Shown one piece after another: positions 31,322 to 49,632 of a stretch of DNA of 64,000 nt; position 1 is the first letter of the stretch, and the number at the start of each line of letters is the position of its first letter. Made by a program: the position numbers and the translations under genes. Origin of the DNA: a virus (Duplodnaviria > Heunggongvirae > Uroviricota > Caudoviricetes); the IMG/VR virus record IMGVR_UViG_2698536476_000008; one strand, written 5' to 3'. A model generated the notes under the pieces. That model saw nothing but the letters and a program-made list of their open reading frames with translations. It did no database searches and was not told the DNA's origin.

Positions 31322-32515
31322 GTGACCTGGGACGATCACAAGAAGAATTTTGCTCGCCTGGCGCGAGATGGTGGTTACACCATCGCACAGTATGCCGCCG
31401 AGTTTAATCTTAACCCTAATACCGCACGTCGTTATCTCCGTGCCTTCAAAGAAGACACCAGGACAGCGGACAGCCGCAAGCCAAATAAGCCAGTCAGGAA
31501 GCCACTAAAAAGCATGATCATTGATCACTCTAATGATCAACATGCAGGTGATCACATTGCGGCTGAAACAGCGGAAAAACAAAGAGTTAATGCCGTTGTC
31601 AGTGCCGCAGTCGAGAATGCGAAGCGCCAAAATAAGCGCATAAATGATCGTTCAGATGATCATGACGTGATCACCCGCGCCCACCGGACCTTACGTGATC
31701 GCCTGGAACGCGACACCCTGGATGATGATGGTGAACGCTTTGAATTCGAAGCTGGCGATTACCTGATAGATAACGTTGAAGCGCGGAAGGCCGCGCGCGC
31801 TATGTTGCGTCGGTCCGGGGCCGATGTTCTGGAAACCACTCTTCTGGAAAAGTCTCTTTCTCATCTCCTTATGCTGGAGAACGCCAGGGATACGTGTATT
31901 CGCCTGGTGCAGGAAATGCGCGATCAGCAAAAAGACGATGATGAAGGTACTCCGCCTGAATACCGTATCGCGAGCATGCTAAACAGCTGTTCCGCGCAGA
32001 TAAGCAGTCTGATCAACACCATTTACAGCATCCGGAATAACTATCGAAAAGAAAGCCGGGAGGCGGAAAAGCACGCTTTGTCTATGGGGCAAGCTGGCAT
32101 TGTTAAGCTGGCATATGAACGAAAGCGTGAAAATAACTGGTCAGTGCTGGAAGCAGCTGAATTCATCGAGGCGCATGGTGGGAAAGTTCCGCCCCTGATG
32201 CTGGAGCAAATCAAAGCCGATCTGCGTGCTCCTAAGACCAATACCGATGATGAGGAAAGGCAAACAGCCGTCGGTGGCCCTTCTCTTGACGATCTGGACA
32301 AAGTTGCGCGAGAACGGGCCGCCAACCGCCGCGCCGATGCCGCATTGTGGATTGAGCAGCGTAGGGAAGAAATCGCCGATATCGTTGATACAGGCGGTTA
32401 TGGAGATGTTGATACTGAAGGTGTATCAAACGACCCATGGCTGGAACAAGACCTGGACGAAGACGAGGAGGAAGACGAAGAAGTTACCCGCAAGCTATAC
32501 GGGGATGATGATTAA
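31322..32515 (+). CDS. pacA: Pacase small subunit
   Basis: 397-aa ORF containing the pac hexamer cluster. Confidence 0.8.
31514..31673 (+). other. pac packaging site: two clusters of TGATCA/TGATCG hexamers (4 + 3 Dam sites) flanking the cleavage region
   Basis: Hexamers at 31514, 31522, 31534, 31549 and 31644, 31657, 31668. Confidence 0.75.
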
Positions 32516-33999: not shown

Positions 34000-34002
34000 A
34001 TA

Positions 34003-34019
34003 TTTGCTCTAATAAATTG
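34003..34019 (+). promoter_or_regulatory. C1 operator-like site (TTTGCTCTAATAAATTG) preceding the immI-like module
   Basis: Direct read. Confidence 0.5.
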
Positions 34020-34201
34020 TGTTTTTTAGCTACCGATGTTACATTGAACCTGACCTCTTGCGCCTTGAGGCATTTTCGGTTTATGCTTATCAGGCACCTC
34101 ATTAAAACGGGTGCCGGGATTGGCCTCCCGCTTAAGTCTAAGGCGATACAGACGCCGCTCGCGTCTTTTTTTGTATCGGCGTACACGCACACCTCTACAA
34201 T

Positions 34202-34277
34202 GGTGGGCTGTATGGGGCTACCTTCGGGTAGGCTGGTTACCTTGGACGCCAGTAAGGCCAACTCCGTACAGTCCACC
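34202..34277 (+). ncRNA. c4: c4-like structured antisense RNA candidate (about 76 nt, ends paired)
   Basis: GGTGGGCTGTA at 5' end pairs with TACAGTCCACC at 3' end; internal hairpin CTACCTTCGGGTAG; sits between operator and icd/ant. Confidence 0.45.
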
Positions 34278-34337
34278 GCCAGCAAGATTGGTCTCTTCTG
34301 CGGTGGTTACATACCAACGTCTAAGGAGGCTGCCAAT

Positions 34338-34559
34338 ATGGCTACTATCCCTACCCCAACTCATCCTGAATTTATCTGGCGCTTTTACTCCTGCCAAAAA
34401 CGTCACTATCACTTCGTTATTGCACCAACAGAAGATGAGGCCCGCTCTCAGCTGCCTGACGCCCCATGTATTTTCTCTGCCCGTTTTTCCACTGATTCAC
34501 GCAATTCTCTCAGTTACTGGTACCTCCCTGTTAACGCTTCTGTTCAGGAGGGGCTATGA
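34338..34559 (+). CDS. icd: Icd-like small protein overlapping ant start
   Basis: 73-aa ORF, TAAGGAGG RBS, ATGA overlap with next gene. Confidence 0.5.
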   Translation: MATIPTPTHPEFIWRFYSCQKRHYHFVIAPTEDEARSQLPDAPCIFSARFSTDSRNSLSYWYLPVNASVQEGL

Positions 34560-35674
34560 GAACGTCATTAGTCACCCGTGAAGAGATGATCGAGGCAATT
34601 GAACAGCACACTGCCTGTATCAGCACCAGGGATATTCCCAGTGTTATAGCCAACTACTTCATGATCACTAAACAACTTTACCGGAGAAAGGACAAGAACG
34701 CGGTTCACCGTATCCTGCTGTCTGATATTCGCGAATACCTGCTCGAACAGGGTCATCTGAATTACGCAACCGTCGCAGCCGAAGCACGCAAGGAGGCACA
34801 CAGAATGAAAGCAACTAACGTTAAATCAGAAAAAATTCATGCACCTTCAGTTCAGGAATCGGAGCTGGTGGTTGTTCAGAATCAGTCTGATGAAATTCCC
34901 GTTCTGGAATGGCAGGGAGTGCGTGTAGTGACAACCGAGACTCTTGCTAGAGGGTATGGGACAGAAACAATCCGTATTCGCCAAAATCATCATGAGAACA
35001 AAGTACGCTTTGTTGAAGGGAAGCACTTTTTCAAAGTTGAAGGAGAATCATTGCGCGAGTTGAAGCACAGAGTAGCTTTAAACTACTCTGTAAAAATTGC
35101 TCGCAATGTTCGCTCACTCACCCTCTGGACAGAACGCGGCGCAGCCCGCCACGCTAAAATGCTCGAAACCGATCAGGCATGGGCATTCTTTGAAAAACTG
35201 GAAGACAGCTACTTCCGACAAAAAGAACAGCAACCGATCGCAATCCCCCAGACGCTTCCTGAAGCCCTACGCCTGGCTGCCGAACTGGCTGAACAAAAGC
35301 AACTTCTGGAACAGAAAGCCCACCAGCTAAATCAGCAGCTGGTGGCCGCCGCTCCTAAAGTCGATTTTGCCGACCGGGTATCAGTAGCTAAAGGGATCCT
35401 GATTGGGAATTTTGCAAAGGTTGTTGGACTTAAGCAAAACGCGCTGTTTGTCTGGTTACGGGAGAACGGCATCCTGATAGCGTCCGGTGGACGTAAAAAT
35501 GTGCCGTTCCAGCAGTACATCAACGCGGGGTATTTCACGGTGAAAGAAGTGGTGCTGGATGATGAAGATGGCTACCAGATACGGTTGACGCCTCAATTAA
35601 CGGGTAAAGGCCAGCAGTGGTTGACGCGTAAACTGCTCGATGCTGGCTTGTTAAAACCGGTGGCAGCTGAATAA
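34556..35674 (+). CDS. ant: Antirepressor (ORF6N-like N-domain, Ant/KilAC-like C-domain); possible internal start for shorter isoform
   Basis: 372-aa ORF with antirepressor-type sequence features. Confidence 0.6.
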   Translation: MRTSLVTREEMIEAIEQHTACISTRDIPSVIANYFMITKQLYRRKDKNAVHRILLSDIREYLLEQGHLNYATVAAEARKEAHRMKATNVKSEKIHAPSVQESELVVVQNQSDEIPVLEWQGVRVVTTETLARGYGTETIRIRQNHHENKVRFVEGKHFFKVEGESLRELKHRVALNYSVKIARNVRSLTLWTERGAARHAKMLETDQAWAFFEKLEDSYFRQKEQQPIAIPQTLPEALRLAAELAEQKQLLEQKAHQLNQQLVAAAPKVDFADRVSVAKGILIGNFAKVVGLKQNALFVWLRENGILIASGGRKNVPFQQYINAGYFTVKEVVLDDEDGYQIRLTPQLTGKGQQWLTRKLLDAGLLKPVAAE

Positions 35675-35706
35675 TGGAAGAATGCCCGGTTGATGCCGGG
35701 CATAAT

Positions 35707-36558
35707 TTATTGCGCGCTTTCGGGGTTGTCGTTTACTGGCTGCCCCTTCTTGGTTTTACGACTGCGCGTAACTGATGCGGCTGACTTAACCTTTTTCTCT
35801 TCGCGAGTGATGGCAATTTGTTTTTTTACATTTTCAATATCTGCCAGGCGATATATTTTTGCTTGCGGCCAGCGGTCGCAGATGATCGGTTCTATGGAGT
35901 CATAAAGGCTAAATTTTGCTTTTTCGAATTCACCGTTGATGATAATTCCATCACGGAGAGTTTCATCGCAGATAAACACGCCACACAGTGGCACATGGTA
36001 ACTAACTGATTTACCATCATTGTAGTTAGGGCTACTGGAAATGTAGTGGACGCGCAGCATTGTTTCGCTAAAGCCGTGTACGCGCATACGGAATTTTTCA
36101 TCCTCCGGGTACTGCCTCATTAGCTCTTTTGTTGCTTCCAGGTTCTCTATGTATTTCGCACTGTGCTCATTGATCCCCGCGCTTTTCTGGATGCGAATGT
36201 CCTTATCAATCAGATGAATAATGCGGCCAGCGGTCATGTTGACGCTGTTCACAGCTTCTGTCTGATAAGTTGTAACCTTACGCACACCGCGAAGGATGTT
36301 AGGCACTGGATATAAAATAGTCTTTGGGATATTGAGGTCTGGGTACTGTTCCAGTTCCCGCGCCATTAAAGTCCATTTATCAATTTCAGCCTGAATGCTG
36401 TCCGTTTCTTTGAACGGCAGAACGACAACCGGGCGAACAGGACGACCGTCGCTGGCGGCATCAACGTGTTGGGCGCGTGCAACAGCTTTTTTTAGAAAGA
36501 GATCCCTGAAGCTGACGAACTCCTGGTACAGTTGTTCGCCGTAGACATAATTTATCAT
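35707..36558 (-). CDS. c1: C1 repressor of lysis/lysogeny
   Basis: 283-aa ORF MINYVYGEQLYQEF...; position between pacB side and coi/loxP; its operator motif is scattered through the window. Confidence 0.8.
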   Translation of the reverse strand: MINYVYGEQLYQEFVSFRDLFLKKAVARAQHVDAASDGRPVRPVVVLPFKETDSIQAEIDKWTLMARELEQYPDLNIPKTILYPVPNILRGVRKVTTYQTEAVNSVNMTAGRIIHLIDKDIRIQKSAGINEHSAKYIENLEATKELMRQYPEDEKFRMRVHGFSETMLRVHYISSSPNYNDGKSVSYHVPLCGVFICDETLRDGIIINGEFEKAKFSLYDSIEPIICDRWPQAKIYRLADIENVKKQIAITREEKKVKSAASVTRSRKTKKGQPVNDNPESAQ

Positions 36559-37711: not shown

Positions 37712-38743
37712 ATGTCCAATTTACTGACCGTACACCAAAATTTGCCTGCATTACCGGTCGATGCAACGAGTGATGAGGTTCGCAAGAACCTGATGGACAT
37801 GTTCAGGGATCGCCAGGCGTTTTCTGAGCATACCTGGAAAATGCTTCTGTCCGTTTGCCGGTCGTGGGCGGCATGGTGCAAGTTGAATAACCGGAAATGG
37901 TTTCCCGCAGAACCTGAAGATGTTCGCGATTATCTTCTATATCTTCAGGCGCGCGGTCTGGCAGTAAAAACTATCCAGCAACATTTGGGCCAGCTAAACA
38001 TGCTTCATCGTCGGTCCGGGCTGCCACGACCAAGTGACAGCAATGCTGTTTCACTGGTCATGCGGCGGATTCGAAAAGAAAACGTTGATGCCGGTGAACG
38101 TGCAAAACAGGCATTGGCGTTCGAACGCACTGATTTCGACCAGGTTCGTTCACTCATGGAAAATAGCGATCGCTGCCAGGATATACGTAATCTGGCATTT
38201 CTTGGGATTGCTTATAATACCCTGCTACGTATAGCAGAAATTGCCAGGATCAGGGTTAAAGATATCTCACGTACTGACGGTGGGAGAATGTTAATCCATA
38301 TTGGCAGAACGAAAACGCTGGTTAGCACCGCAGGTGTAGAGAAGGCACTTAGCCTGGGGGTAACTAAACTGGTCGAGCGATGGATTTCTGTCTCTGGTGT
38401 AGCTGATGATCCGAATAACTACCTGTTTTGCCGGGTCAGAAAAAATGGTGTTGCCGCGCCATCTGCCACCAGCCAGCTATCAACTCGCGCCCTGGAAGGG
38501 ATTTTTGAAGCAACTCATCGATTGATTTACGGCGCTAAGGATGACTCTGGTCAGAGATACCTGGCCTGGTCTGGACACAGTGCCCGTGTCGGAGCAGCGC
38601 GAGATATGGCCCGCGCTGGAGTTTCAATACCGGAGATCATGCAAGCTGGTGGCTGGACCAATGTAAATATTGTCATGAACTATATCCGTAACCTGGATAG
38701 TGAAACAGGGGCAATGGTGCGCCTGCTGGAAGATGGCAATTAG
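37712..38743 (+). CDS. cre: Cre tyrosine recombinase
   Basis: 343-aa translation MSNLLTVHQNLPALPVDATSDEVRKNLMDMFRDRQAFSEHTWKMLLSVCRSWAAWCKLNNRKWFPAEPEDVRDYLLYLQARGLAVKTIQQHLGQLNMLHRRSGLPRPSDSNAVSLVMRRIRKENVDAGERAKQALAFERTDFDQVRSLMENSDRCQDIRNLAFLGIAYNTLLRIAEIARIRVKDISRTDGGRMLIHIGRTKTLVSTAGVEKALSLGVTKLVERWISVSGVADDPNNYLFCRVRKNGVAAPSATSQLSTRALEGIFEATHRLIYGAKDDSGQRYLAWSGHSARVGAARDMARAGVSIPEIMQAGGWTNVNIVMNYIRNLDSETGAMVRLLEDGN (to my recollection, standard Cre apart from possibly the final residue). Confidence 0.97.
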   Translation: MSNLLTVHQNLPALPVDATSDEVRKNLMDMFRDRQAFSEHTWKMLLSVCRSWAAWCKLNNRKWFPAEPEDVRDYLLYLQARGLAVKTIQQHLGQLNMLHRRSGLPRPSDSNAVSLVMRRIRKENVDAGERAKQALAFERTDFDQVRSLMENSDRCQDIRNLAFLGIAYNTLLRIAEIARIRVKDISRTDGGRMLIHIGRTKTLVSTAGVEKALSLGVTKLVERWISVSGVADDPNNYLFCRVRKNGVAAPSATSQLSTRALEGIFEATHRLIYGAKDDSGQRYLAWSGHSARVGAARDMARAGVSIPEIMQAGGWTNVNIVMNYIRNLDSETGAMVRLLEDGN

Positions 38744-39237: not shown

Positions 39238-39254
39238 ATTGCTCTAATTGATTG
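39238..39254 (+). promoter_or_regulatory. C1 operator-like site (ATTGCTCTAATTGATTG) preceding ref
   Basis: Direct read. Confidence 0.55.
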
Positions 39255-39352
39255 CTATAATTTGGCCGCAGTTTTTGTCAACTACGAAGACGTTGCCATT
39301 ACTTCACTCCTTGACATCATTGGCGGCCATTAGGCCGCCTTTTTTTTGCCAT

Positions 39353-39913
39353 ATGAAAACAATCGAACAAAAACTTGAACAGCGCCGCGAGTGGCAGAAG
39401 GCAGCCAGAGAACGAGCGATCGCTCGGCAACGGGAAAAGTTGGCTGACCCCGCCTGGCGAGAATCGCAATATCAGAAAATGCGGGATTCTATCGACCGCC
39501 GTATCGCTAAACAGAAAGAGCGCCCACCAGCCAGCAAAACGCGGAAAAGTGCGGTAAAAATAAAATCTCGTGGCTTGAAGGGGCGAACACCGACGGAGGA
39601 GGAACAGACTATCGCCAATGCTCTTGGCACTCTCCCCTGCATTGCCTGCTACATGCATGGAGTAATATCTGAAGAGGTGTCTCTGCACCATATCTCCGGT
39701 CGTACCGCGCCGGGTTGTCACAAAAAGCAATTGCCCCTTTGCAGATGGCACCACCAGCATGCAGCACCGGCTGAAGTAAGAGAAAAATACCCCTGGCTGG
39801 TCCCTGTTCATGCCGATGGCGTGGTAGGAGGCAAGAAAGAATTCACCTTGTTGAACAAGTCAGAGATGGAGTTGCTGGCTGACGCCTATGAAATGGCAAA
39901 CATCATGCACTAA
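39353..39913 (+). CDS. ref: Ref, RecA-dependent HNH-family nuclease (recombination enhancement function)
   Basis: 186 aa from ATG 39353; basic N-terminus, Cys/His cluster CIACYMHG...HHISGR...CHKKQLPLCRWHH. Confidence 0.75.
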   Translation: MKTIEQKLEQRREWQKAARERAIARQREKLADPAWRESQYQKMRDSIDRRIAKQKERPPASKTRKSAVKIKSRGLKGRTPTEEEQTIANALGTLPCIACYMHGVISEEVSLHHISGRTAPGCHKKQLPLCRWHHQHAAPAEVREKYPWLVPVHADGVVGGKKEFTLLNKSEMELLADAYEMANIMH

Positions 39914-40101
39914 TAAATATATTATTTTTAATCTTAAATGATTGACAACTGACAAGTGACTTGAGTCAGAATCATCACACGCCCGGTACGGATGGATCCC
40001 TTTTCAAATATTCCATGGACGGCACAGTCTGAGTACCGGGCGCTACCTTCAGTTGTATTGCTAAGCCGCCGCTGGTGGCTTTTCTTTTTTGTAGGGGCGC
40101 T

Positions 40102-40743
40102 ATGGATAAGAAAATATGCGTTGTTTCGATGAGCGTCGGCAAACCGGCGTCAATGACTGCTGCATGGATCAACAACGAGCTGATAATGGCTGAGCGGACC
40201 AGCTACCCTGAACGCCGCCGCGACATGGAACTCCAGCTGCTGCGCGAATTGCGAGAAAAAGAGGAAAAGGGTTTTATCGTGCTGGTGGAAGAGGAAAACA
40301 GCTTTATTACTGGTCGAGTTGGCCAGCGTGTAAGGTTGCGCGATCCCTTCATGAACGGCAGGCCGGTACTGATTGAAGCAATGCAGATTTACAAGGAGCT
40401 GGAACGCCAGAAAGCGATCAAGTTACCGCGCAAGGAATCCGGCAAATACATCCTCCACCAAAGCATCTTCGATTCCGAACACGATAAAAAAGGCGATGAA
40501 TTTTTCAACATCAACTGGAGCGAAATAACGACAGAGCATGTTCTGACGTTACTATGTTGCTTTGCGACGGAATACAACAACGTTGCCAGCGCAGACTACA
40601 TCAGGGCAATGGCTGGAGAAGTTGAGGCACGCCAGGAACCATCGTTACTAAGCCCTCTGATTAACATAATTCGCGGAACCCAAACGCTGGCACAAAAACA
40701 GGTGCCTAAGGGAGTATTAACAGGAAAAGGAAATTATCTATAA
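40102..40743 (+). CDS. Mat-position protein (particle maturation-like), start uncertain
   Basis: ORF track 40075..40743; late-promoter-like motif upstream. Confidence 0.4.
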   Translation: MDKKICVVSMSVGKPASMTAAWINNELIMAERTSYPERRRDMELQLLRELREKEEKGFIVLVEEENSFITGRVGQRVRLRDPFMNGRPVLIEAMQIYKELERQKAIKLPRKESGKYILHQSIFDSEHDKKGDEFFNINWSEITTEHVLTLLCCFATEYNNVASADYIRAMAGEVEARQEPSLLSPLINIIRGTQTLAQKQVPKGVLTGKGNYL

Positions 40744-40799
40744 ACGTCAATGCATTAGGGTATACTTCTCCGTAGAACTATAAGTAAATGGAGTAAGTA

Positions 40800-42104
40800 A
40801 TGAGCGAGTATATAGAAATTGCCTATGCAGCAGCTACACATAGGCTGTGCTTTCTTACAGGCACTGGATTTTCAAAGGCTGTTTCTGATGATAAAGCCCC
40901 AAGTTGGCAATCTTTATTGGAGCAACTGTGCGGTTTATTGAAGGATGGTGACTCACTCAAAGAGGAATTATTTCCTGATGGAAAAGCAAAAGACCTTAGC
41001 CTTGAAGAGGCTGCTCAAGTTATTGCACTAAAATTTATACTTTCGGGGAAAAATATTTACCAGGAGATTGAGAAAATCATAGCCTCAATCGAACTTGATC
41101 CATCAATTGAATATATTCAAGACTTTTTCAAAGAAAACACATTTAAAGTAATTACGACAAATTATGACAAGTTAGCAGAAAAACTGGCTGGAGAGAATCG
41201 AACGTGTACAATCACCCCCGGCCTGCCAATTCCAAAATATAATTGTGAGGTTAAAGTCTACCATGTTCACGGCTCTATAGACTCCCCATCAGATATGGTT
41301 GTTACTAGCGAGGATTATTTCAGATTTATAAATGGTAATTCTTACTTTTCAAATAAACTAAGCACAGTTCTACATGAAAACACTATTGTTATTCTTGGCT
41401 ATTCTCTAAGTGACGCGAACCTCAAGGCGATTATAAATGAATATAAGGTATTTTCACGGGACAACGTAATGTCCTCCAATATTTTCCTTATTTCCCGAGG
41501 AAAACTATTGCAACCTATTAAAGATTACTATTTTTCCTGCTTTGGGATTAGGGTTATAGATAAAACAGAGGTGTCTGATTTCTTTAGAAAACTTAACAAG
41601 AAAATTCCAGAAGCAAAAAAAATAAAAGACAAATTGAGGCACTCAATCAAATCGGTAATAAAAAACGGAAGAGAGTATAAAATAGAGTTCTTGAAGTTAG
41701 AGGATTCTTTTTATCATATCATTTCCTCCATTTCATCATCTGGATATAGCTGGAATGATGAAAAGGTATTAAATGTTTTTTGTGATATAATAGATAAAAA
41801 AATAGATCTTACTAAAGAGTCTGGCGCATGGGAGCAGTATGAACACCTGGCAAAATGGCTTATTTATTTCGGTAGTTTATTTGAAGTAAAAGGAACCAAC
41901 TTTGAGAAAAAATACATACATGCGGTTGAACACTCAATGACTTATATGAATAAACCTTACGAAACAGGCTACTCATGGCGAGCATATCTAGCCTGGAAAA
42001 CAAAATGGCCTTCACTGACAGCATCTAACCGCTCTCTTATTAAGAGTAAGATGGAAGAAATCCCGCTACAACAGATTCACGATATTATATCTAAGTTTAT
42101 ATAG
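40800..42104 (+). CDS. SIR2-like (sirtuin-fold, SIR2_2/DSR-ThsA type) protein with uncharacterised C-terminal half; candidate single-gene antiphage defense
   Basis: N-terminal motifs LCFLTGTGFSK, VITTNYDKL, KVYHVHGS; low GC relative to flanks; occupies the mat to lxc interval. Confidence 0.7.
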   Translation: MSEYIEIAYAAATHRLCFLTGTGFSKAVSDDKAPSWQSLLEQLCGLLKDGDSLKEELFPDGKAKDLSLEEAAQVIALKFILSGKNIYQEIEKIIASIELDPSIEYIQDFFKENTFKVITTNYDKLAEKLAGENRTCTITPGLPIPKYNCEVKVYHVHGSIDSPSDMVVTSEDYFRFINGNSYFSNKLSTVLHENTIVILGYSLSDANLKAIINEYKVFSRDNVMSSNIFLISRGKLLQPIKDYYFSCFGIRVIDKTEVSDFFRKLNKKIPEAKKIKDKLRHSIKSVIKNGREYKIEFLKLEDSFYHIISSISSSGYSWNDEKVLNVFCDIIDKKIDLTKESGAWEQYEHLAKWLIYFGSLFEVKGTNFEKKYIHAVEHSMTYMNKPYETGYSWRAYLAWKTKWPSLTASNRSLIKSKMEEIPLQQIHDIISKFI

Positions 42105-42112
42105 TATATTTA

Positions 42113-42139
42113 TCTCCGGCCTAATCTCCCTAGGCCGGA
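42113..42139. terminator. Bidirectional terminator hairpin (ctccggcc-taatctccctag-ggccggag) between convergent SIR2-like gene and lxc
   Basis: 8-bp GC-rich inverted repeat. Confidence 0.5.
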
Positions 42140-42145
42140 GAGTTC

Positions 42146-42394
42146 TTAATCAGCATTCAGGAGCAATGCGTTATCTATGATGATCTGCTCCCATTCCTCG
42201 AATGCCCGGTCGCGGACGCCCTGGGGAACGCTGTTAGTTTTGAAATCGACGACCGTCCGCCATTTTCCGTCCGGACGGTACATGCGCAGAGCTTTACTTC
42301 CCCCTTCCCTGCGCACCTCAACGTTATGCTTGTCAGCAAACTCTTGTAATGCTCGTAGCGTCCCATGCTTTACTGTGTAGTATCGCTTTTTCAA
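42146..42394 (-). CDS. Lxc/Bof-position protein (82 aa)
   Basis: Size and position downstream of ulx/darB. Confidence 0.4.
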   Translation of the reverse strand: MKKRYYTVKHGTLRALQEFADKHNVEVRREGGSKALRMYRPDGKWRTVVDFKTNSVPQGVRDRAFEEWEQIIIDNALLLNAD

Positions 42395-42831
42395 GTTTTC
42401 TCTCCAGCCTGTGCCAAGGCTTCAACTTCCAAATCGTAAGACTCAAACTCATAGTCCTGGTCGTCAACTTCTTCAGGCACTGGCAGTAAATGCCAGGCTG
42501 AGTATATCTGACCATTATCAAAACGCTCCTGGCTGTAGAGCGTCGCGGCTATGAGTGTTAGCGCCGGGCGGTCATAACGGTAAATTTTGCGAACGTCACG
42601 GTCAACGAGACGACCGAAATTACCATAACCGCGCTCCAGTAATAATTTTTTAATTTCCGGCCAGTATGGACCATAGCTGCGGTACAGGCGGGGATTTTTC
42701 AGTAATCGCCCGCGTAGCCCTGACAGGAAGAAATCAACGTATTCGTCTTCTGTCTTTCCTAACAACGCTGTACGGAGTACCGCCTCAAGATATGTTTTAT
42801 TCGGTTTTATTGTATCAGATAGTGTGGCCAT
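42391..42831 (-). CDS. Ulx-position protein (146 aa)
   Basis: ORF coupled between darB and lxc. Confidence 0.4.
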   Translation of the reverse strand: MATLSDTIKPNKTYLEAVLRTALLGKTEDEYVDFFLSGLRGRLLKNPRLYRSYGPYWPEIKKLLLERGYGNFGRLVDRDVRKIYRYDRPALTLIAATLYSQERFDNGQIYSAWHLLPVPEEVDDQDYEFESYDLEVEALAQAGEKT

Positions 42832-42864: not shown

Positions 42865-45800
42865 TTATGCGTATTGTTGGATGACGGCCAGAACGTCCGC
42901 CACGTTGTGTTTTGTCTCGATAATCCACCAGTTACCCGGGAAATCGCTGTTCTTCGCCTTCGCTGGCAGCCAGCGAGCGCCGAATTTCGCCTTGATTGCG
43001 TCTTTCGCACGGAAAAGAACGCCTTTCATGCCTGAGGCTTCCTGAAGCCCAAATACCTCGCCAGCGGCGAATTTTGGTGCGTACATCATCTTCAGGTCGG
43101 CGGTGGATACGCGATAATTCAGACCAAGAGACTGAGCTATGCTGGTGGCATCACCCTGTATTGATGATAACTCTTCTTGTTTCTCGTTTCTGGCGGCAAT
43201 CTCTTCCTCCGTGATGTTGCCAAGGGCTAGGTTTATCCGATCAGCGTCGGCCTGTTTCTCTTCATCGGTGCGCCCGGCAAGAACCGTGTTAATTCTCTGC
43301 AATATCTCCACATGATTCTTGCGCATGCTGAGCAATTCCGGCGTAACCTCGTTAAGATCCACCAGCCCAAGGATGGCAAGGTCGGAAAACATTGATACCA
43401 GGTTGTAGGTCATGCGATAGCTGAGTTGACCATAGGCTGATGGCAACTTCACCGCATCCATTTGATAGGCATCCATAAATTTAGAGCCGTCGTTTACGAC
43501 ATCCGCTATTGCAGGTGTGATTTTCCCTGTGGTGGCGGCCTCCCTGATTGCTGTTACCCACGATTGAGTCAGCGCGGCGACTGCATGATTCAGATTGGCT
43601 TCCCGTTCTGCTGCGATGCGCGCGCTTGCTGCGTCCATTGCCTGCTTGATCTCGGCTTTATTGCTGTAAATGCCAATGGTGCCAAACTGTGCTGTGGTGA
43701 TCTCATAATCTGACGCCCGGAACTCATTGGTACCGAAAATGGCATTGGTGACTTCAAGTTCAGAATCCCCGTTACGAGTAGCCCCCTGGCTTGTTTTTTC
43801 CGGCATTCTGGCGATCGCATCCGCTATTTTCTCCTGAATTGCTTCAGGGGATAGCGTATCTCCGTATGACGCGATTACATCGCCATAATTGGAGCCAAAC
43901 AGTTCAACCAGGAATGTTTCTGCCGAACGGATCTGGCGGTTATTCCCTTCCGACATCATACCAAGCACCCATTTTGCAATTGACGACTTCAGCGCGCCGT
44001 CACGGCGATCCGGGTAAACCGCATGCTTCAGTGGGTCCGTATAGGTACCAACAAAATCGATGCTATAGCCTGACTCTGTAGTCTGAACGCCGTATGAGTC
44101 AGTGATTTTGATCATGCCGCGCTGCTGGAAACGGTAGAAATCGTCACAGGAAATGATGTCGTTAATCCCGGCGATGGAGACGCCACCACTGATTTTCTGC
44201 ATAACAGCATCTTCATCGGGAGTTACATCAACCTGTTTATCCAGCGTCTTCACATCCCAGTTACCCGATTTGGTGCCTTTGAAGGTAAAGATGATCTCCA
44301 CGTCTGCGCGCTGGCTGTCGAAGTCCAGCGACTTAATGCGAACGATATCACCGGCACAATCATAGTATTGGCCTACACGCCATGAGCGATCGCCGATAAC
44401 AAGGAACTCATTCGCATGGTTAACCAGATCAGGATCAACATCCAGAATGCCTTTATTTATTGCATCCTCCACCAGCGGGCGCAGGCGTTTGATATCCGTC
44501 GCGGCCTTCTGAGTACGGTTCAATAATTTCTCATAGCGGGAGATGGCCTGAGAGATATTAGCCTTGCGCTGAATGGCGCTTTTCAACGACGCGCGATACT
44601 GTGCTAACAACATACGGTCTGTGTGATGGACGCTACCCCAGCGGGCTTTCCAGTCTGCGTTATCAGCTGCTTTGGCCATTACCGCCTGTTTGAATTTAGC
44701 TACCTCGGCGGTGGTCTTTTCAAGTTCCGCTTTGCTTCGCTCCAATTCAGCGGTAAGTACCTCCACATCCTCACCAGCTGCGTGCTGCGCCTTGATGTAG
44801 TTCTGAAGGTCGATAGTAGCCTGTTCTTTCTGGCGAGCGCGTTTCGCAGCTTTCGCCTTATCCATTTGAACCTGCATCATTGCCAGACGTTCGCCGTCAT
44901 CCTTCGCGGTATACATCTGCATTTCGATCATGTCATTGGCGTCGGCGTTCTCCATTTCTGACTTATCTGAACGGAGGATATCGGAGATCCAGCCTGCTTT
45001 ACGCTTCAGCGTCTTCAGTCGGTATTCATCGAAAGACCCCTTGCCGCAGTAGTAGTGAACGCGAACGCTTGCACGGTTGGAGCCAACTCGTGCACCGCGA
45101 CCGTTACGTTGTGCGATGCTGGCTGGTGTCCATGGCAACGTCAGATGATGGATGTCAGTCGTTCCTCGATGCAGGTTGATACCCACCTCTGCCTTTTTGT
45201 TGCAGATGATGATCGGAGTCCGGCCCTCCTGGAAGTCGGCTGCAATCTTTTCCAGACCGCCCAACGACATTTCATTTTGCTGCGCGATATAGGCGTCATA
45301 CAGAGCCATTTGCTCGTTGTATTTCGCTATCTGTGCATCTGTTGGTTCATCCGGTAGCTCTTTCGGCGGTTTAACCGCTTTCAGTTTCTTACCGGTTTTA
45401 CCTGCCTCGGCAACCGTCTGAGCATTCAGGATCCCCACCTTTGAAGGTTCAAGGTTTAGAGCATTGCAGATAATGCGCTTGAGCTTCTGGTGCTGCGTTT
45501 TTTCATCGGTGAAGATGATTTGCTTACCTTCCGGGAAAAACTCCTTCAGCGTGGCGATCAGCTTCGCGTATTTCGGCGTAACGGGGTGAGTTACGGTCTG
45601 TTCGTCAATGCCAAACCTGGCCAGGCGCTTATTCACTTCCTGCTCGAACGCTTCCGGAACCTGCAACTGAATAAACTCGCCCTTATCTATCAGGGAGTAT
45701 TGCGATTGCTGCGTGATTGAATCATCACTGTCGTCGTCTTCGCTGGTGGCTTGTTTAGGCAAACTGTCCGCCAGCTGCTGCACCGCATCGGCGTACTCCG

Positions 45801-48800
45801 GCAGGAAACGATAGGTGATCCGGCGATAGTACAGGTCCATGTCAGTACATACGCGGTCCATATCCCTGATTATTGAGAAGATCGGACGGGCTTTCTCGTG
45901 CTCAATCACGCCGTCTTCATTGACCGAGGTCGTTACGCCATTGTTGGCTTTGGCCGCCGCTTCCGCCTGCTGACGCAATTCTTCATACGCCGCCAGTTGT
46001 TCTTCAGTAAGTGGTGCATCCTGCTGGTGTTCGTCCAGCTCCGGGATCTCCACGGTATCCTTAACGTCTTCCGCCGTTTTAAGCGTTACCCAGCGATGGA
46101 ATATACCGCGCAGCGCATCAAGGTTTTCAAAGCCCACCAGCGCCATTTTTTCTTCAACTTCACCGCTAATTTTCTGTACCGTTTCCAGCCTGGTCTTGCC
46201 GAAGAATTTAACGAAGTCATCAGGACCGTAGATCCCCATGTTCTGCCAGTATTCCTTCGGCAGAACATGAGAAAGCATGTTGTATGCATCGATCGGGGTG
46301 TTAACGACTGGCGTTGCAGTCAGGAGAACCGGCCCGCGCCCGCCATTCTTTTTCATCAGGTACGCGTTTTTAATTGCCATATCTCGCGCCGATTGCGCCA
46401 CCGCGCTGGTGGGCAGATAGGCCAGTTGTGACGCTTCGCGACCATTTTTATAGCTATTGCGGTAGTTGTGACCTTCGTCGGCGATCACACTATCGAAGCC
46501 CATATCCTCAAAGTACGGATACTTCTCTGCTTTTTCGGTGCCGGTATCTGAATACTCCGACAATACCCGGCGACGCGCGGCCTCTTTGCGGTGGGAGTCG
46601 GAGTCCATTGCGCTGGCTACGCGCCCGGCTGCAACGAAGTCATAAAGCATATCCTGTGCATGCTCATCTACGGTGTCATCACGTAGCGGAATGCGGGCGT
46701 ATTGTTCTTTGGTAAACACGACTGCACGGTAATTTGAGTGCGGGATCGCGTTCATCCGCGCCGTGATAGTGGCTTCATCTGCCAGTTTTAGGGCATCGCG
46801 CATAACTGGAGTGCCATCAGTACCAAGAACAGGTTTACCGTTCTCATCGAGCACCGGCACCTGGCGAATCTGATCGCCATCCATCAGCACATCAAGACCG
46901 ACGAACAGGTAGTTACTGAATGCCTCTTCACTCAGGAATTCTTTTGCTTCGTAATACCAGTTTTCCAGCACTGATTTAGGCACTACATACGCAGTACGGG
47001 TGGAGCGACCGTTCTCATAGTTGAACGCCTCAAGCGCCAGCGCGGTCGTAGTTTTACCCAGCCCGGTGCCGAAGCCCAGGATGCCGCGCCCATCTTCGGA
47101 CAGTCGGCGCACTTCGCTATTCTGGTAATCAAATGGCTGGCGCTTACCGCTTAATCCCTTCAACCCAAGCGGATCGCCAGAGTGTTCATACGGGATATTG
47201 CTATTGAACACATCGTTGTATTTGGCAACCAGTTCATCGTAGCGATCGTGCGTCTTGATCCACTTATTGAACTGGTCCTCAAGCAGTGCCATCTGCTCGC
47301 GGTAGCCGTTCGCCGTCGCGCTATCTTTGCCACCGATACGCGCACCATTGAGATACTTTTCCAGCTGTGCCGGGAACCCGGTCGCGTTTTCACCTGATTT
47401 ACGGTCCCACTCGTAGCGGATCTCGCCTGTTTCTTTATCCTTGCGCTGGACGACACCGTATCGGTGCCCGACGAACAGGCCATCACCACCGTGATAGGTG
47501 TCAGAAACCATTTCGTCGCCTTCCAGCTGCACTGACTGCACATAGCGCAGATCCGGATAGCCGTTTTCCTGCAAAAACTCCAGAATGACGGAACGGTCGA
47601 ACCAACGGCTATTGAGCTTAAACCGGATATTCTCTGCTGGCGTCTTGATGCGCTTCTCTTCGATCGCTGCCAGCTGATTAAGGACGTTGTTCTTTACTGG
47701 ACCGTCGGGGAGCGTGGCGAGGAATTCCTGTTTTGGAGCCACTATCTCGTTAATGTCGCCGCTGGTGGCGCGGGCGAACGGAACAATCCCGCCATACGGT
47801 GAAACCGCAATACCAGGAGTGCTGGCCAATAAATTAAGCAACTCTTCATCACTGGCTGGCAATTCGCCGGTAAACGCAAGGCGGAAATCATCGAGCTGGA
47901 TTGGATCGCGGGTAAGATCGCTATAGAGATAACGCAGGGTGTCCTGATAGCTGGTGGAGTCATAACTGGCGCTGGAATCATGCGTAACCAGCTTTCCTGT
48001 CAGCTCGTCAGAAATAGTGCCATCCAGCTTAATTGCACCACGGAAAGCAAACCAGGCGCGCGCACCGCTTCCCGATAATTTAGCTATCGGACCGCGACCA
48101 GGGTTACCAAAACGGTCAATCTCTGCCTGCAAACGGGATACCAGAGAAAGGCGCTGCTGTTCGATTTGTTCAGCACTATGCCCGGCGGCCTTCATATCCT
48201 GATATTCAATTAACATCCGGCCAATCATCGCCCCACGATACAAGCGTTCACGGTATTTTTCAGGCTGGCTGTTAATCCAGTCCACCAGCTGCACCATATC
48301 GTCGCTGATTGATGTGGTGTACTTATCGCGGACATTTGCCATCTGGGTAAATGTCATACCGAGACGGCCTTCTGTTGTAGTCAGGTTACGCTGAAGAGCC
48401 TCCCAGCTATCCGCGCCATAACTGGCAGCATCAATTTTAAGTTCCTTCCCGGCATCAGCTTCAATCCAGCGACCACCAGCATATTTTTGCCATACGCCAT
48501 TAATCAGGCGCATTTCCCCTTCACCAACAACGTCTGCGGTCAGTGACGGTTCAGCCATATCGAGCAAAGACCAGTCGATACGGCTTTCGAAACGATGAAT
48601 CAGCTTCGCTTTAAGAGCCTGGTTATCAATCTGACCGTCGGCACGAACCTCAATACGCCCCTGGAAGCCCTTTTCCTGGGTGCCATGAACAAACCGGCGG
48701 CCATCCTTTTCAAACCACTTGCCAGAAATAAACGTTGGCCAAAGCACATTTGCCGATTCAAGAGTGCTTTCATCCACCAGGGGGATTTTCTCAGCCATCT

Positions 48801-49632
48801 CTGCCGGATGTTTGCGCATCAGCACCACATCAACGACTGTACTGGTCCCGTTTGCGTCAAAAGTACCGGTAGGCAAGCGGTGGGCACCAAGAAATTCAGC
48901 TTTCCGTGATAGGCGCAGGCGTAACCGCTTCATGTTTGAACCTGAAACAATGGACGGCGGCACAATCACGCACATGAATCCGCCTGGCTTTATCTTGTCC
49001 AGCATGCGGAGCATGAAGTAAGAACCCATGTCCGTTTCTTCTGCGTAAGGCTTATCGATGTTGCGTGTGTTATCACGACCGCCGAACGGAACGTTACCCA
49101 CAACATGGTCGAATGAATCGTTAGGCGTGCTTATAGCCAGCTGTTCGAACGGGGAAATCTGTACGCTGTCTTCCGGGTGTAACAACTGGTTTATACGACC
49201 GGAAACACTGCTGATCTCAGTCGCGGTCATCACCGTACCAACCGGTTTTGTCTCATTAAAAACGCCGGTTCCCGCCGATGGTTCCAGAGTGTTACCTACG
49301 TCCGCGCCGTAGAGCTTCATGATCTCCCAGACACCTTCAGCGATCGGCTTTGGTGTGTAATATTCGGAGACGGACCCGCCAATGCCGCCTTCACCGGTGT
49401 ACCCAGCCAGGATCTGGCGCTGTTCATCTGTCAGTGTCGCGCCGTCCACCAGCGAATTAAGCAAATCTATCGCCTTCTGATTCGCCTCCCGGCGTAGTCG
49501 GTCATAGCTTTTGCCTTCCACCTTTTCCACGCCGTATCTAATCGGCGCTCGGTGAGATGTTATTGCCCTAATGTATTTCAATATTTCGCTGACACTTGAA
49601 CAGCGAAACACCCCCATAGATAGCTTGTTCAT
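42865..49632 (-). CDS. darB: DarB-like giant antirestriction protein (2255 aa) with N-terminal methyltransferase-like and helicase-like regions
   Basis: Single 6.8-kb ORF of exactly the size I recall for P1 DarB; DPPY-like and helicase motifs. Confidence 0.8.
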   Translation of the reverse strand: MNKLSMGVFRCSSVSEILKYIRAITSHRAPIRYGVEKVEGKSYDRLRREANQKAIDLLNSLVDGATLTDEQRQILAGYTGEGGIGGSVSEYYTPKPIAEGVWEIMKLYGADVGNTLEPSAGTGVFNETKPVGTVMTATEISSVSGRINQLLHPEDSVQISPFEQLAISTPNDSFDHVVGNVPFGGRDNTRNIDKPYAEETDMGSYFMLRMLDKIKPGGFMCVIVPPSIVSGSNMKRLRLRLSRKAEFLGAHRLPTGTFDANGTSTVVDVVLMRKHPAEMAEKIPLVDESTLESANVLWPTFISGKWFEKDGRRFVHGTQEKGFQGRIEVRADGQIDNQALKAKLIHRFESRIDWSLLDMAEPSLTADVVGEGEMRLINGVWQKYAGGRWIEADAGKELKIDAASYGADSWEALQRNLTTTEGRLGMTFTQMANVRDKYTTSISDDMVQLVDWINSQPEKYRERLYRGAMIGRMLIEYQDMKAAGHSAEQIEQQRLSLVSRLQAEIDRFGNPGRGPIAKLSGSGARAWFAFRGAIKLDGTISDELTGKLVTHDSSASYDSTSYQDTLRYLYSDLTRDPIQLDDFRLAFTGELPASDEELLNLLASTPGIAVSPYGGIVPFARATSGDINEIVAPKQEFLATLPDGPVKNNVLNQLAAIEEKRIKTPAENIRFKLNSRWFDRSVILEFLQENGYPDLRYVQSVQLEGDEMVSDTYHGGDGLFVGHRYGVVQRKDKETGEIRYEWDRKSGENATGFPAQLEKYLNGARIGGKDSATANGYREQMALLEDQFNKWIKTHDRYDELVAKYNDVFNSNIPYEHSGDPLGLKGLSGKRQPFDYQNSEVRRLSEDGRGILGFGTGLGKTTTALALEAFNYENGRSTRTAYVVPKSVLENWYYEAKEFLSEEAFSNYLFVGLDVLMDGDQIRQVPVLDENGKPVLGTDGTPVMRDALKLADEATITARMNAIPHSNYRAVVFTKEQYARIPLRDDTVDEHAQDMLYDFVAAGRVASAMDSDSHRKEAARRRVLSEYSDTGTEKAEKYPYFEDMGFDSVIADEGHNYRNSYKNGREASQLAYLPTSAVAQSARDMAIKNAYLMKKNGGRGPVLLTATPVVNTPIDAYNMLSHVLPKEYWQNMGIYGPDDFVKFFGKTRLETVQKISGEVEEKMALVGFENLDALRGIFHRWVTLKTAEDVKDTVEIPELDEHQQDAPLTEEQLAAYEELRQQAEAAAKANNGVTTSVNEDGVIEHEKARPIFSIIRDMDRVCTDMDLYYRRITYRFLPEYADAVQQLADSLPKQATSEDDDSDDSITQQSQYSLIDKGEFIQLQVPEAFEQEVNKRLARFGIDEQTVTHPVTPKYAKLIATLKEFFPEGKQIIFTDEKTQHQKLKRIICNALNLEPSKVGILNAQTVAEAGKTGKKLKAVKPPKELPDEPTDAQIAKYNEQMALYDAYIAQQNEMSLGGLEKIAADFQEGRTPIIICNKKAEVGINLHRGTTDIHHLTLPWTPASIAQRNGRGARVGSNRASVRVHYYCGKGSFDEYRLKTLKRKAGWISDILRSDKSEMENADANDMIEMQMYTAKDDGERLAMMQVQMDKAKAAKRARQKEQATIDLQNYIKAQHAAGEDVEVLTAELERSKAELEKTTAEVAKFKQAVMAKAADNADWKARWGSVHHTDRMLLAQYRASLKSAIQRKANISQAISRYEKLLNRTQKAATDIKRLRPLVEDAINKGILDVDPDLVNHANEFLVIGDRSWRVGQYYDCAGDIVRIKSLDFDSQRADVEIIFTFKGTKSGNWDVKTLDKQVDVTPDEDAVMQKISGGVSIAGINDIISCDDFYRFQQRGMIKITDSYGVQTTESGYSIDFVGTYTDPLKHAVYPDRRDGALKSSIAKWVLGMMSEGNNRQIRSAETFLVELFGSNYGDVIASYGDTLSPEAIQEKIADAIARMPEKTSQGATRNGDSELEVTNAIFGTNEFRASDYEITTAQFGTIGIYSNKAEIKQAMDAASARIAAEREANLNHAVAALTQSWVTAIREAATTGKITPAIADVVNDGSKFMDAYQMDAVKLPSAYGQLSYRMTYNLVSMFSDLAILGLVDLNEVTPELLSMRKNHVEILQRINTVLAGRTDEEKQADADRINLALGNITEEEIAARNEKQEELSSIQGDATSIAQSLGLNYRVSTADLKMMYAPKFAAGEVFGLQEASGMKGVLFRAKDAIKAKFGARWLPAKAKNSDFPGNWWIIETKHNVADVLAVIQQYA

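What the first reader, a model, noticed from the sequence alone, without database searches (positions are those of the whole stretch)
40744..42145. Low-GC cassette with sharp boundaries suggests recent horizontal swap at a defense hotspot
The SIR2-like ORF is visibly AT-rich (runs such as aaagaaaacacatttaaagtaattacgacaaattatgac) compared with flanking P1 backbone. It starts 57 bp after the mat-like stop and ends at a GC-rich bidirectional hairpin (42113-42139) shared with the convergent lxc gene. This is the pattern expected if the locus is a swap site for immunity cargo.
Basis: partly seen in the sequence, partly recalled or inferred. Interest (0 to 1): 0.6.

Follow-up and report, generated by a model that had tools for sequence, protein, structure and literature searches.

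The report
Compact sirtuin gene in P1 cargo slot
A P1-like phage-plasmid carries an AT-rich, single-gene SIR2 (sirtuin-type, probably NAD+-destroying) cassette in the slot where phage P1 keeps its restriction system. The slot is a known variable region that also holds proven anti-phage genes in relatives, but this compact sirtuin family has not been characterised.

Summary
Window 40744-42145 is 35.7% GC against 49-51% in the flanks, the lowest-GC 1.4 kb of the window. It sits exactly between the mat and lxc stop codons and ends in a strong hairpin.

The site is a real swap site. Among 708 P1-like plasmids the gap is empty or holds EcoP1I res-mod, CapRel^SJ46, two or three SIR2 alleles, or YaaC, DUF2971, PIN, GNAT or EAL+HTH genes. 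This is already published in outline as the low-GC "variable region 1".

Two parts of the reading fail:
- **"Recent" swap:** carrier copies are only 93-99.9% identical (dS up to 0.28). Every cargo type at this site is low-GC, and so are homologues of this gene in two of the three other hosts checked.
- **"Shared" hairpin:** each cargo type brings its own hairpin.

The 434-aa protein combines a DSR2/ThsA-like SIR2 NADase domain, with the catalytic Asn and His invariant, and a family-specific ~180-aa helical-repeat domain. It has no partner gene, sits in defence islands and prophage ends in other bacteria, and is not matched full-length by PADLOC or NCBIfam models or listed in a DefenseFinder survey of P1-like elements. 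The most likely function is a single-protein NAD+-depleting abortive-infection defence. That function is untested.

The parts
40075..40743 (+). mat (maturation control gene), the left conserved flank. Its last ~60-150 nt co-vary with the cargo type.
   Evidence: Matches phrog_1837 full length and is annotated mat in relatives. The identity profile drops to 27-83% over the last bins for other cargo types but stays 83-100% in SIR2 carriers.
40717..40744 (+). Promoter-like element TTAACA-N16-TATAAA overlapping the last mat codons and the stop codon. Inferred cargo promoter, not shown.
   Evidence: It matches 10 of 12 consensus positions. The CapRel variant has TTAACA-N16-TATAAT at the same place (11/12). 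In the empty-site phage RCS47, synonymous codons give TTGACG-N16-TCTGAA (8/12). In reference P1, mat is under the C1 operator Omat and a late promoter, so expression of the cargo in a lysogen would need a separate promoter.
40744..40799 (+). 56-nt leader with a GGAG ribosome-binding site at 40790-40793. It is shared, with one difference, by the two diverged SIR2 alleles.
   Evidence: Sequence. The alignment with allele 2 shows the leader 97-100% identical while the ORF is ~67% identical.
40800..41564 (+). SIR2 ORF, residues 1-255: SIR2-type Rossmann domain with GTG motif (20-25), TTNYD (Asn121) and YHVHGS (His157).
   Evidence: Pfam SIR2_2 scores 83.8 bits against a cut-off of 24.5. The motif residues are invariant in 114 sequences. 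Foldseek's best matches are the DSR2 SIR2 domain (TM about 0.7, 20% identity), ThsA and KomC. dN/dS is 0.07-0.15.
41565..42104 (+). SIR2 ORF, residues 256-434 plus the stop codon: all-helical alpha-solenoid domain specific to this family. Inferred sensor or regulatory domain.
42113..42141 (.). GC-rich hairpin (11-bp stem, 7-nt loop), a terminator-like element between the convergent SIR2 and lxc genes. It is carried by the cassette.
   Evidence: Energy -20.8 kcal/mol, z = -4.66. Flagged terminator-like on the + strand. Each other cargo type has a different hairpin at the same position.
42146..42394 (-). lxc (modulator of C1), the right conserved flank. Homology to all P1 relatives resumes at its stop codon.
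   Evidence: A 101-nt copy of the lxc 3' end separates SIR2 from res-mod in pE2865-1, a footprint of recombination in this flank.

Best explanation
The interval is one allele of an exchangeable cargo slot of P1-like phage-plasmids. The slot lies between the convergent backbone genes mat and lxc. Cargo modules are swapped by homologous recombination in those conserved flanks.

The SIR2 and CapRel modules each carry:
- a cargo-linked mat 3' end containing a promoter-like element,
- a short leader with a ribosome-binding site,
- one gene,
- their own terminator hairpin.

Other cargo types hold one or two genes in either orientation and also end in their own hairpin.

Here the cargo is a 434-aa single protein built from two domains. 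The first is a DSR2/ThsA-type SIR2 NAD+ hydrolase domain. The second is a short, fast-evolving helical-repeat domain.

The most likely mechanism is as follows. In a lysogen the protein is made constitutively and kept inactive. A protein of a superinfecting phage binds the helical domain, or changes the protein's oligomeric state. The SIR2 domain then hydrolyses cellular NAD+, and the infected cell stops supporting phage growth (abortive infection). This protects the clonal population and the resident phage-plasmid.

**Shown:** composition, boundaries, hotspot diversity, domain architecture, catalytic residues, purifying selection, absence of a partner gene, and defence or mobile-element neighbourhoods.

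**Inferred:** NADase activity, the phage trigger, the sensor role of the C-terminal domain, and promoter use.
For: **Hotspot.**
- 708 plasmids share the flanks, and about 122 carry a SIR2 allele.
- An empty-site form exists.
- CapRel^SJ46 and EcoP1I res-mod occupy the same slot.
- pE2865-1 stacks SIR2 and res-mod with a remnant of lxc between them.

**Protein.**
- SIR2_2 domain.
- Invariant N121 and H157, aligned to DSR2 N133/H171 and ThsA N112/H152.
- No match to the classical sirtuin family in Pfam, and no CxxC zinc-ribbon motif in the sequence.
- The closest folds are DSR2, ThsA and KomC, all anti-phage NADases.
- The C-terminal domain is an alpha-solenoid, a fold type that DSR2 also uses, in its HEAT-repeat and C-terminal domains, to bind its phage activator.
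- The architecture is fixed in all 75 clusters found.
- The ORF is intact, and dN/dS is 0.07-0.15 in the SIR2 domain.

**Context of homologues.** They lie at a prophage end next to the integrase, beside Hachiman and an integrase, beside a NERD-UvrD helicase and a DUF2971 gene, beside an HD dGTPase-like gene, and in an HNH/DUF4145/HSDR_N island. No neighbour is conserved.
Against: - No experiment exists. No paper in the held library names this protein.
- PADLOC, NCBIfam and PHROGs give no functional assignment beyond the SIR2 domain.
- Most other occupants of the slot (YaaC, GNAT, EAL+HTH) match no known defence model, so 'immunity cargo' is proven for only two cargo types.
- The alpha-solenoid match is generic.
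- The elevated dN/dS in the C-terminal domain rests on 12-13 replacements in three non-independent sequences, and it is 0.13 in a fourth.
- The promoter is only a consensus match. The tool's own scan found no promoter upstream of the ORF.
Confidence: 0.55

Rival explanations
1. One reading: a recently acquired foreign gene whose low GC and sharp edges mark a fresh horizontal insertion into this particular element.
For: GC is 0.357 against ~0.50 with sharp edges. The gene is absent from reference P1 and from all 20 matching phage records. The nearest homologue outside P1-like elements is only 61% identical.
Against: About 65 plasmids carry the cassette, at 93.1-99.9% identity and dS up to 0.28. 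That is as much divergence as the flanks show, or more. A second allele (59% amino-acid identity) and a sub-allele about 85% identical to it in DNA sit in the same slot with the same leader. All cargo types here are 0.325-0.367 GC, and homologues are below their surroundings in E. coli and Halomonas too.
Confidence: 0.1
2. The SIR2 protein is an NAD-dependent protein deacylase or ADP-ribosyltransferase, as RefSeq names it. It would modify a host or phage protein to regulate P1 lysogeny, maturation or host physiology, and would not be an immune effector.
For: RefSeq annotates it 'SIR2 family NAD-dependent protein deacylase'. It sits beside regulatory genes (mat, lxc). The SIR2 fold supports such chemistry in classical sirtuins.
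Against: Pfam returns only SIR2_2 (PF13289) and no match to the classical sirtuin family. There is no CxxC zinc-ribbon motif (sequence). The nearest structures are NADase immune effectors. The gene is dispensable and replaceable by R-M or CapRel in relatives. Homologues lie in defence islands, not with P1 genes.
Confidence: 0.1
3. The gene is mainly a selfish stabilisation module. Its NADase toxicity would be unleashed when the plasmid or a labile inhibitor is lost, and any anti-phage effect would be incidental.
For: P1 is a low-copy plasmid. Other occupants of the slot (R-M, fused toxin-antitoxin CapRel) can act as addiction modules, a point PMC10879196 makes for R-M systems.
Against: No antitoxin-like partner or second ORF lies in the cassette. 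The family occurs as a lone gene in chromosomes. P1-like elements already carry phd-doc.
Confidence: 0.1
4. The gene serves the phage offensively. It would be an anti-defence or takeover factor that lowers host NAD+ or NAD-derived immune signals during P1's own infection, consistent with the adjacent anti-restriction genes ulx and darB.
For: It neighbours the Dar anti-restriction cluster. The same window encodes a protein with a Tad2-like anti-Thoeris domain.
Against: The slot's characterised cargo is defensive (R-M, CapRel). Homologues in non-phage defence islands argue against a phage-offence role. No SIR2-type anti-defence protein turned up in the libraries or papers searched here.
Confidence: 0.05

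Closest known systems
DSR2 (defence-associated sirtuin 2, Bacillus subtilis 29R)
   Same: Single-protein system. N-terminal SIR2 NADase domain with the same N/Y/D/H catalytic pocket (TTNYD, HG). Best structural match. All-helical repeat region after the SIR2 domain; in DSR2 the HEAT-repeat and C-terminal domains bind the tail-tube activator.
   Different: 434 aa against ~1005 aa. It lacks the HTH, helix-bundle and long six-repeat HEAT domains. About 20% identity in the SIR2 domain only. It scores 30.6 bits against the NCBIfam Dsr2 cut-off of 1400. Trigger and oligomeric state are unknown.
Thoeris ThsA (SIR2-SLOG effector)
   Same: Similar size (476-497 aa) and a SIR2 NADase domain. Best PDB sequence hit is SeThsA 7UXT at 3e-9. 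PADLOC ThsA models hit the SIR2 part.
   Different: There is no SLOG/STALD ligand-binding domain; the C-terminus is an alpha-solenoid. No ThsB/TIR gene lies in the cassette or next to homologues.
Anti-phage hotspots of P2-like phages and P4-like satellites (Rousset et al. 2022, PMC9122126), and 'variable region 1 (res-mod)' of P1-like phage-plasmids (PMC9603915)
   Same: Conserved flanking genes with interchangeable low-GC cargo. Proven defence systems are among the cargo. An empty-site form exists.
   Different: For P1-like elements the site has been listed as variable and low-GC, and DefenseFinder surveys report RM-III and CapRel in P1-like elements. In the papers I could search, neither the slot's anatomy (cargo-linked mat 3' end, per-cargo terminator, stacking) nor its SIR2 occupants are described.
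CapRel^SJ46 (fused toxin-antitoxin, Salmonella phage SJ46)
   Same: Occupies exactly the same mat-lxc slot in a sister element, in the same orientation. It has the same promoter-like element over the mat stop codon and its own terminal hairpin. It is a single-protein sensor-effector.
   Different: Unrelated protein. CapRel belongs to the toxSAS toxins (homologues of small alarmone synthetases) and is activated directly by a phage capsid protein (PMC9712102). It is not an NADase.

Membership tests
SIR2_2 superfamily (Pfam PF13289; prokaryotic defence-type SIR2 NADases) | Score above the Pfam gathering threshold | tested here: met
   83.8 bits against a cut-off of 24.5, residues 117-245. Ten distant family members also pass.
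SIR2_2 superfamily (Pfam PF13289; prokaryotic defence-type SIR2 NADases) | Catalytic Asn and His (ThsA N112/H152; DSR2 N133/H171) and a glycine-rich NAD-binding loop | tested here: met
   TTNYD Asn121, YHVHGS His157 and T20-G21-T22-G23-F24-S25 are invariant in 114 sequences. They are aligned to DSR2 and ThsA. Residue roles are taken from PMC11263360.
SIR2_2 superfamily (Pfam PF13289; prokaryotic defence-type SIR2 NADases) | NAD+ hydrolase activity | not testable with these tools
   Needs biochemistry.
DSR2 | Full-length match to the Dsr2 equivalog model, ~1000 aa with HTH, helix-bundle, HEAT and C-terminal domains | tested here: not met
   NCBIfam NF041819 scores 30.6 bits against a cut-off of 1400, over the SIR2 part only. 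PADLOC Dsr2 covers profile positions 121-240 of 1222. The protein is 434 aa.
DSR1 | Full-length match to the Dsr1 equivalog model (~1260 aa) | tested here: not met
   NF041818 scores 21.2 bits against a cut-off of 1400.
Thoeris (ThsA/ThsB) | SLOG/STALD signal-binding domain fused to SIR2 | tested here: not met
Thoeris (ThsA/ThsB) | Adjacent TIR-domain ThsB gene | tested here: not met
   The cassette holds a single ORF. No TIR gene lies beside any of the seven homologue loci.
SIR2-HerA (Nezha) and Lamassu with a SIR2 LmuA | Adjacent HerA ATPase, or LmuB (SMC-like) partner | tested here: not met
   No second gene lies in the cassette. No conserved neighbour appears among homologues. LmuA matches only profile positions 21-221 of 433.
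PADLOC candidate PDC-S25 | Full-length match to the PDC-S25 profile (517-528 positions) | tested here: not met
   Best PADLOC hit (E = 5e-24), but it covers only profile positions 127-283 of 517, i.e. the SIR2 domain.
Classical sirtuin deacylases (Pfam SIR2, PF02146) | Match to the classical sirtuin family and a Cys4 zinc-ribbon module | tested here: not met
   The Pfam scan returned only PF13289. There is no CxxC pair in the sequence.
Mobile-element defence hotspot | Conserved flanks, many alternative cargos, an empty-site form, and experimentally proven defence systems among the cargo | tested here: met
   708 plasmids share the flanks. An even sample of 60 contains at least ten cargo classes. 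The empty site is seen in RCS47. CapRel^SJ46 equals 7ZTB (PMC9712102). EcoP1I res-mod is in P1.
Mobile-element defence hotspot | All or most cargo types shown to be defensive | tested here: inconclusive
   Only CapRel (PDC-S33) and part of the PIN protein hit PADLOC models. The YaaC, 169-aa, GNAT, EAL and HTH proteins hit none.

The most novel reading that the evidence does not exclude
The 434-aa protein founds an unrecognised class of compact single-protein sirtuin immune sensors, a 'mini-DSR'. A ~180-aa helical-repeat domain would read a phage protein and switch on NAD+ depletion.

The mat-lxc slot of P1-like phage-plasmids would be a plug-and-play expression site, with promoter, leader and terminator included, that circulates such sensors among Enterobacteriaceae. 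In that case its other uncatalogued occupants would also be new anti-phage systems: YaaC plus a 169-aa protein, DUF2971, EAL+HTH, GNAT and PIN.
Probability: 0.4. Interest if true: 0.6.

Novelty: new variant of a known kind. Interest (0 to 1): 0.45.

Why it matters
P1-like phage-plasmids are common in E. coli, Salmonella and Klebsiella and spread resistance genes. One carrier of this cassette, pMCR_SCKP-LL83, is an mcr-1 plasmid by its record name.

Roughly one in six such plasmids in PLSDB carries a SIR2 allele in this slot. If it blocks other phages, it affects phage-therapy host range and competition between mobile elements.

At 434 aa with a small sensor domain, the protein would be the smallest stand-alone SIR2 defence protein among those it was compared with here. 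That would make it a tractable model for how NADase effectors are switched on.

The slot also offers a short, ready-made list of uncharacterised genes to test as new defence systems.

Tried and rejected
- **Known defence systems.** PADLOC, NCBIfam and PHROGs gave only partial SIR2-domain hits, or 'unknown function' for phrog_7567.
- **Partner gene.** I inspected seven homologue loci and found no conserved neighbour.
- **Shuffled sensor module.** I tested whether the C-terminal domain is fused to other effectors. A phmmer search of 1.84 billion representatives found it only behind SIR2_2, so that idea is rejected.
- **Literature.** I searched by accession (WP_000006034, WP_023156640) and by topic. 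No paper names this protein. The Sir2 homologue in Vassallo et al. was not identified from the passages read, and no PD-T or PD-lambda model matched this protein in PADLOC. Gilcrease & Casjens 2018 (PMC5800970), the paper most likely to describe this slot, is not held.
- **Source record.** I assumed the window was pMCR_SCKP-LL83 because 3.1 kb match at 100%. A whole-window comparison shows it is only partly collinear, so that record's annotation was not used outside the matched blocks.
- **Diversifying selection.** The dN/dS signal in the C-terminal domain rests on few, non-independent changes. I treat it as a hint only.
Full report
**Setting.** The window is a P1-like phage-plasmid. Around the finding the gene order is cre (37712-38743), ref (39248-39913), mat (40075-40743, +), a 434-aa ORF (40800-42104, +), then lxc (42146-42394), ulx (42391-42831) and darB (42865-49632), the last three on the minus strand. 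The 3.1 kb around the finding are 100% identical to Klebsiella pneumoniae plasmid pMCR_SCKP-LL83 (MF510496.1), where the ORF is annotated only as 'hypothetical protein'. The window as a whole is only partly collinear with that record.

- The cassette 40744-42145 is 35.7% GC, against 49.1% and 50.6% for equal lengths on either side. It is the lowest-GC 1.4-kb stretch of the window, about 4.7 sd below the mean. GC3 is 0.33 against 0.46-0.58 for the neighbouring genes.
- Homology to other P1-like phages stops at about the mat stop codon and resumes exactly at the lxc stop codon.
- The hairpin at 42113-42141 is strong: -20.8 kcal/mol, z = -4.66, and none of 200 shuffles folds as well. It looks like a terminator on the + strand.

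**What occupies this position elsewhere?** Reference P1 has res, mod and an IS5 there, and no SIR2 gene. The flanks are shared by 708 plasmids. An evenly spaced sample of 60 of them shows:

| Content of the mat-lxc gap | Records in the sample |
|---|---|
| this SIR2 allele | 6 |
| a second SIR2 allele | 5 |
| empty site | 3 |
| RelA/SpoT protein | 5 |
| GNAT | 1 |
| YaaC plus a 169-aa protein | 7-8 |
| PIN | 1 |
| DUF2971 | 7 |
| EAL plus HTH | 8 |
| rearranged | 2 |
| one flank only (gap too long for the search to join, a class that includes res-mod, or a flank missing or disrupted) | 13 |

The sixtieth sampled record matched only 85 bases of one flank and could not be classed.
- Phage RCS47 is an empty-site form, with 39 bp between the two stop codons.
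- The RelA/SpoT occupant in Salmonella phage SJ46 is CapRel^SJ46. It matches PDB 7ZTB over 373/373 residues and is a validated anti-phage fused toxin-antitoxin.
- The slot therefore holds at least two proven defence systems (EcoP1I and CapRel).
- Most other occupants match no PADLOC model, so 'immunity cargo' is a well-motivated generalisation and not a demonstrated rule.

**Anatomy of the slot.**
- Every cargo type has its own, different GC-rich hairpin just before the lxc stop codon. The hairpin is part of the module, not a backbone element shared with lxc.
- On the left, identity between elements with different cargo decays within the last 60-150 nt of mat. It stays at 83-100% per 30-nt bin among SIR2 carriers.
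- That cargo-linked segment contains a promoter-like TTAACA-N16-TATAAA overlapping the mat stop codon (40717-44). The CapRel variant reads TTAACA-N16-TATAAT. The empty-site phage encodes the same Tyr-Leu-stop with codons that abolish the -10 element.
- In P1, mat is controlled by a C1 operator and a late promoter, so a downstream gene needs its own promoter to be expressed in lysogens. P1's own P2mod promoter lies in the mirror position, inside the lxc 3' end. Promoter use here is inferred.
- pE2865-1 carries SIR2, then a 101-nt copy of the lxc 3' end, then res-mod and a full lxc. Modules can therefore stack, and recombination does occur in the lxc flank.

**Is it recent?** No.
- Among carriers, cassette identity to the window is 99.9, 98.1, 97.8, 97.7 and 93.1%, with dS up to 0.28. 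This equals or exceeds the divergence of lxc+ulx (98.0-100%).
- A second allele is present full-length in 57 plasmids. It shares the mat 3' end and the 56-nt leader almost exactly, but its ORF is only ~67% identical in DNA and 59% in protein, and it has its own hairpin.
- A further variant about 85% identical to allele 2 also exists.
- All cargo types in the slot are 32.5-36.7% GC. SIR2 homologues are also below their surroundings in the E. coli chromosome (0.33 against 0.47-0.53) and in Halomonas (0.39 against 0.46-0.48), though not in Pseudoalteromonas, where gene and flanks are both about 0.37. Low GC is therefore a standing property of this kind of cargo, not a clock.
- About 65 plasmids carry allele 1 and 57 carry allele 2, roughly 17% of the 708. 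In E. coli, 69 of 5,426 complete genomes carry allele 1 full-length, almost always on a plasmid.

**The protein.**
- Pfam finds only SIR2_2 (residues 117-245).
- The family is large and uniform in length (~431-480 aa). It spans Gamma- and Betaproteobacteria at 53-60% identity to this protein.
- The glycine-rich loop, TTNYD (Asn121) and YHVHGS (His157) are invariant. They align with the catalytic residues of DSR2 and ThsA.
- An AlphaFold model (pLDDT 86, pTM 0.83) shows a Rossmann-type SIR2 domain (residues 1-255) followed by an all-helical domain (258-433).
- Foldseek's best matches are the SIR2 domains of DSR2 (TM about 0.7), ThsA and KomC, all anti-phage NADases.
- A library-wide search with that domain found 75 clusters. 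All have the same SIR2-plus-domain architecture or are fragments of it. It is a family-specific domain, not a shuffled module.
- The C-terminal domain is less conserved than the SIR2 domain (45% against 62.5% identity across the family).
- Among close P1 variants, replacements cluster at charged positions 320-341 and 416-420, while the SIR2 domain shows dN/dS of 0.07-0.15. The C-terminal signal rests on few, non-independent changes.

**Context of homologues.** None has a conserved partner gene. The neighbourhoods are:
- **E. coli chromosome:** the lone last gene of a prophage, beside the integrase.
- **Idiomarina:** directly after Hachiman (HamA plus a DEAD helicase) and before an integrase.
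- **Logan metagenome contig carrying P0117, a protein NCBI lists from Stutzerimonas:** between a NERD-UvrD helicase and a DUF2971 gene.
- **Pantoea:** after an HD/HD_assoc gene.
- **Halomonas:** in an HNH/DUF4145/HSDR_N/DUF87 stretch.
- **Paracidovorax:** near an AAA_23/SMC_N gene.
- **Pseudoalteromonas:** uninformative.

**Mechanism.** The best-supported reading is a single-protein abortive-infection system. It would consist of a constitutively made, auto-inhibited SIR2 NADase whose helical domain senses a phage component and releases NAD+ hydrolysis, as DSR2 does with tail-tube protein through its HEAT-repeat and C-terminal domains. The architecture, catalytic residues, selection and neighbourhoods are shown. 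The activity, the trigger and the sensor role are inferred.

**Comparison with known systems.** The protein fails membership of each system tested:

| System | Why it fails |
|---|---|
| DSR2 and DSR1 | 30.6 and 21.2 bits against cut-offs of 1400 |
| Thoeris | no SLOG domain, no ThsB |
| SIR2-HerA and Lamassu | no partner gene |
| PDC-S25 | only the SIR2 part of the profile is matched |

A 2025 DefenseFinder survey of P1-like elements lists RM-III, dGTPase, PrrC and CapRel but no SIR2 system.

**What is already known.** PMC9603915 lists res-mod as 'highly variable region 1' of P1-like phage-plasmids and notes the low G+C of the variable regions. Other work shows that phage-plasmids exchange defence genes.

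**Verdict.** The hotspot reading is correct but largely known. 'Recent' and 'shared hairpin' are wrong. The part with real, moderate novelty is the cargo itself: an uncharacterised compact SIR2 family that is widespread in P1-like plasmids, together with the defined modular anatomy of the slot.

Noticed in passing
window 53966-54811 (+): A 281-aa ORF has a C-terminal Tad2-like (Thoeris anti-defence 2) domain (Pfam PF11195, E = 2.5e-22). It lies in a 1.7-kb block (53936-55632) that is not collinear with pMCR_SCKP-LL83, which has an ompD porin gene between ssb and hxr. The same element therefore carries an anti-Thoeris-type domain and a ThsA-like SIR2 gene.
   Followed up: partly
window 19808-29012: A 9.2-kb block has no match in pMCR_SCKP-LL83, whose type I R-M genes (hsdM, hsdS and a DEAD/DEAH-box helicase, probably hsdR) lie at about the corresponding point of that record. 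Here it encodes two Ead/Ea22-like proteins (21022-22269, 22266-22964), a 434-aa DUF551 protein (24012-25316) and several ORFs with no Pfam hit. It includes a low-GC island at 25651-26800. This looks like a second cargo-swap region.
   Followed up: partly
L017 5403-5503 and L019 (E. coli pE2865-1, NZ_AP018809.1): The SIR2 cassette is followed by a 101-nt duplicate of the lxc 3' end, then res and mod, then a full lxc. This shows two defence modules stacked in one slot with a recombination scar.
   Followed up: yes
L024 7748-7776 (reference P1, NC_005856 9747-9775): P1's annotated P2mod promoter lies inside the 3' end of lxc, with its -10 element over the lxc stop codon. This mirrors the promoter-like element over the mat stop codon in the SIR2 and CapRel modules, so cargo in either orientation appears to start from within the end of the flanking backbone gene.
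   Followed up: partly
L026 8407-9237: On a Logan metagenome contig carrying P0117 (a protein NCBI lists from Stutzerimonas), the SIR2 homologue is immediately followed by a gene with a weak DUF2971 match. DUF2971 is also one of the alternative occupants of the P1 mat-lxc slot. The two gene families may travel in the same defence-island pool.
   Followed up: no
window 29012-35708: The region with doc, lpa, pacA/pacB and c1 is only 92% identical to pMCR_SCKP-LL83 over 29012-34006 and unmatched over 34006-35708, while the rest of the backbone is 97-99% identical. This suggests a different immunity or packaging allele.
   Followed up: no
NZ_CP178203.1 3563861-3565262 (E. coli APEC17 chromosome): Two of the 137 places matching the cassette in complete E. 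coli genomes are on chromosomes, not plasmids. They may be integrated P1-like elements.
   Followed up: no
NZ_LR890538.1 54405-55813 (hit H169): A full-length SIR2 cassette is 85% identical to allele 2 in DNA, a third allelic lineage in the same slot.
   Followed up: no
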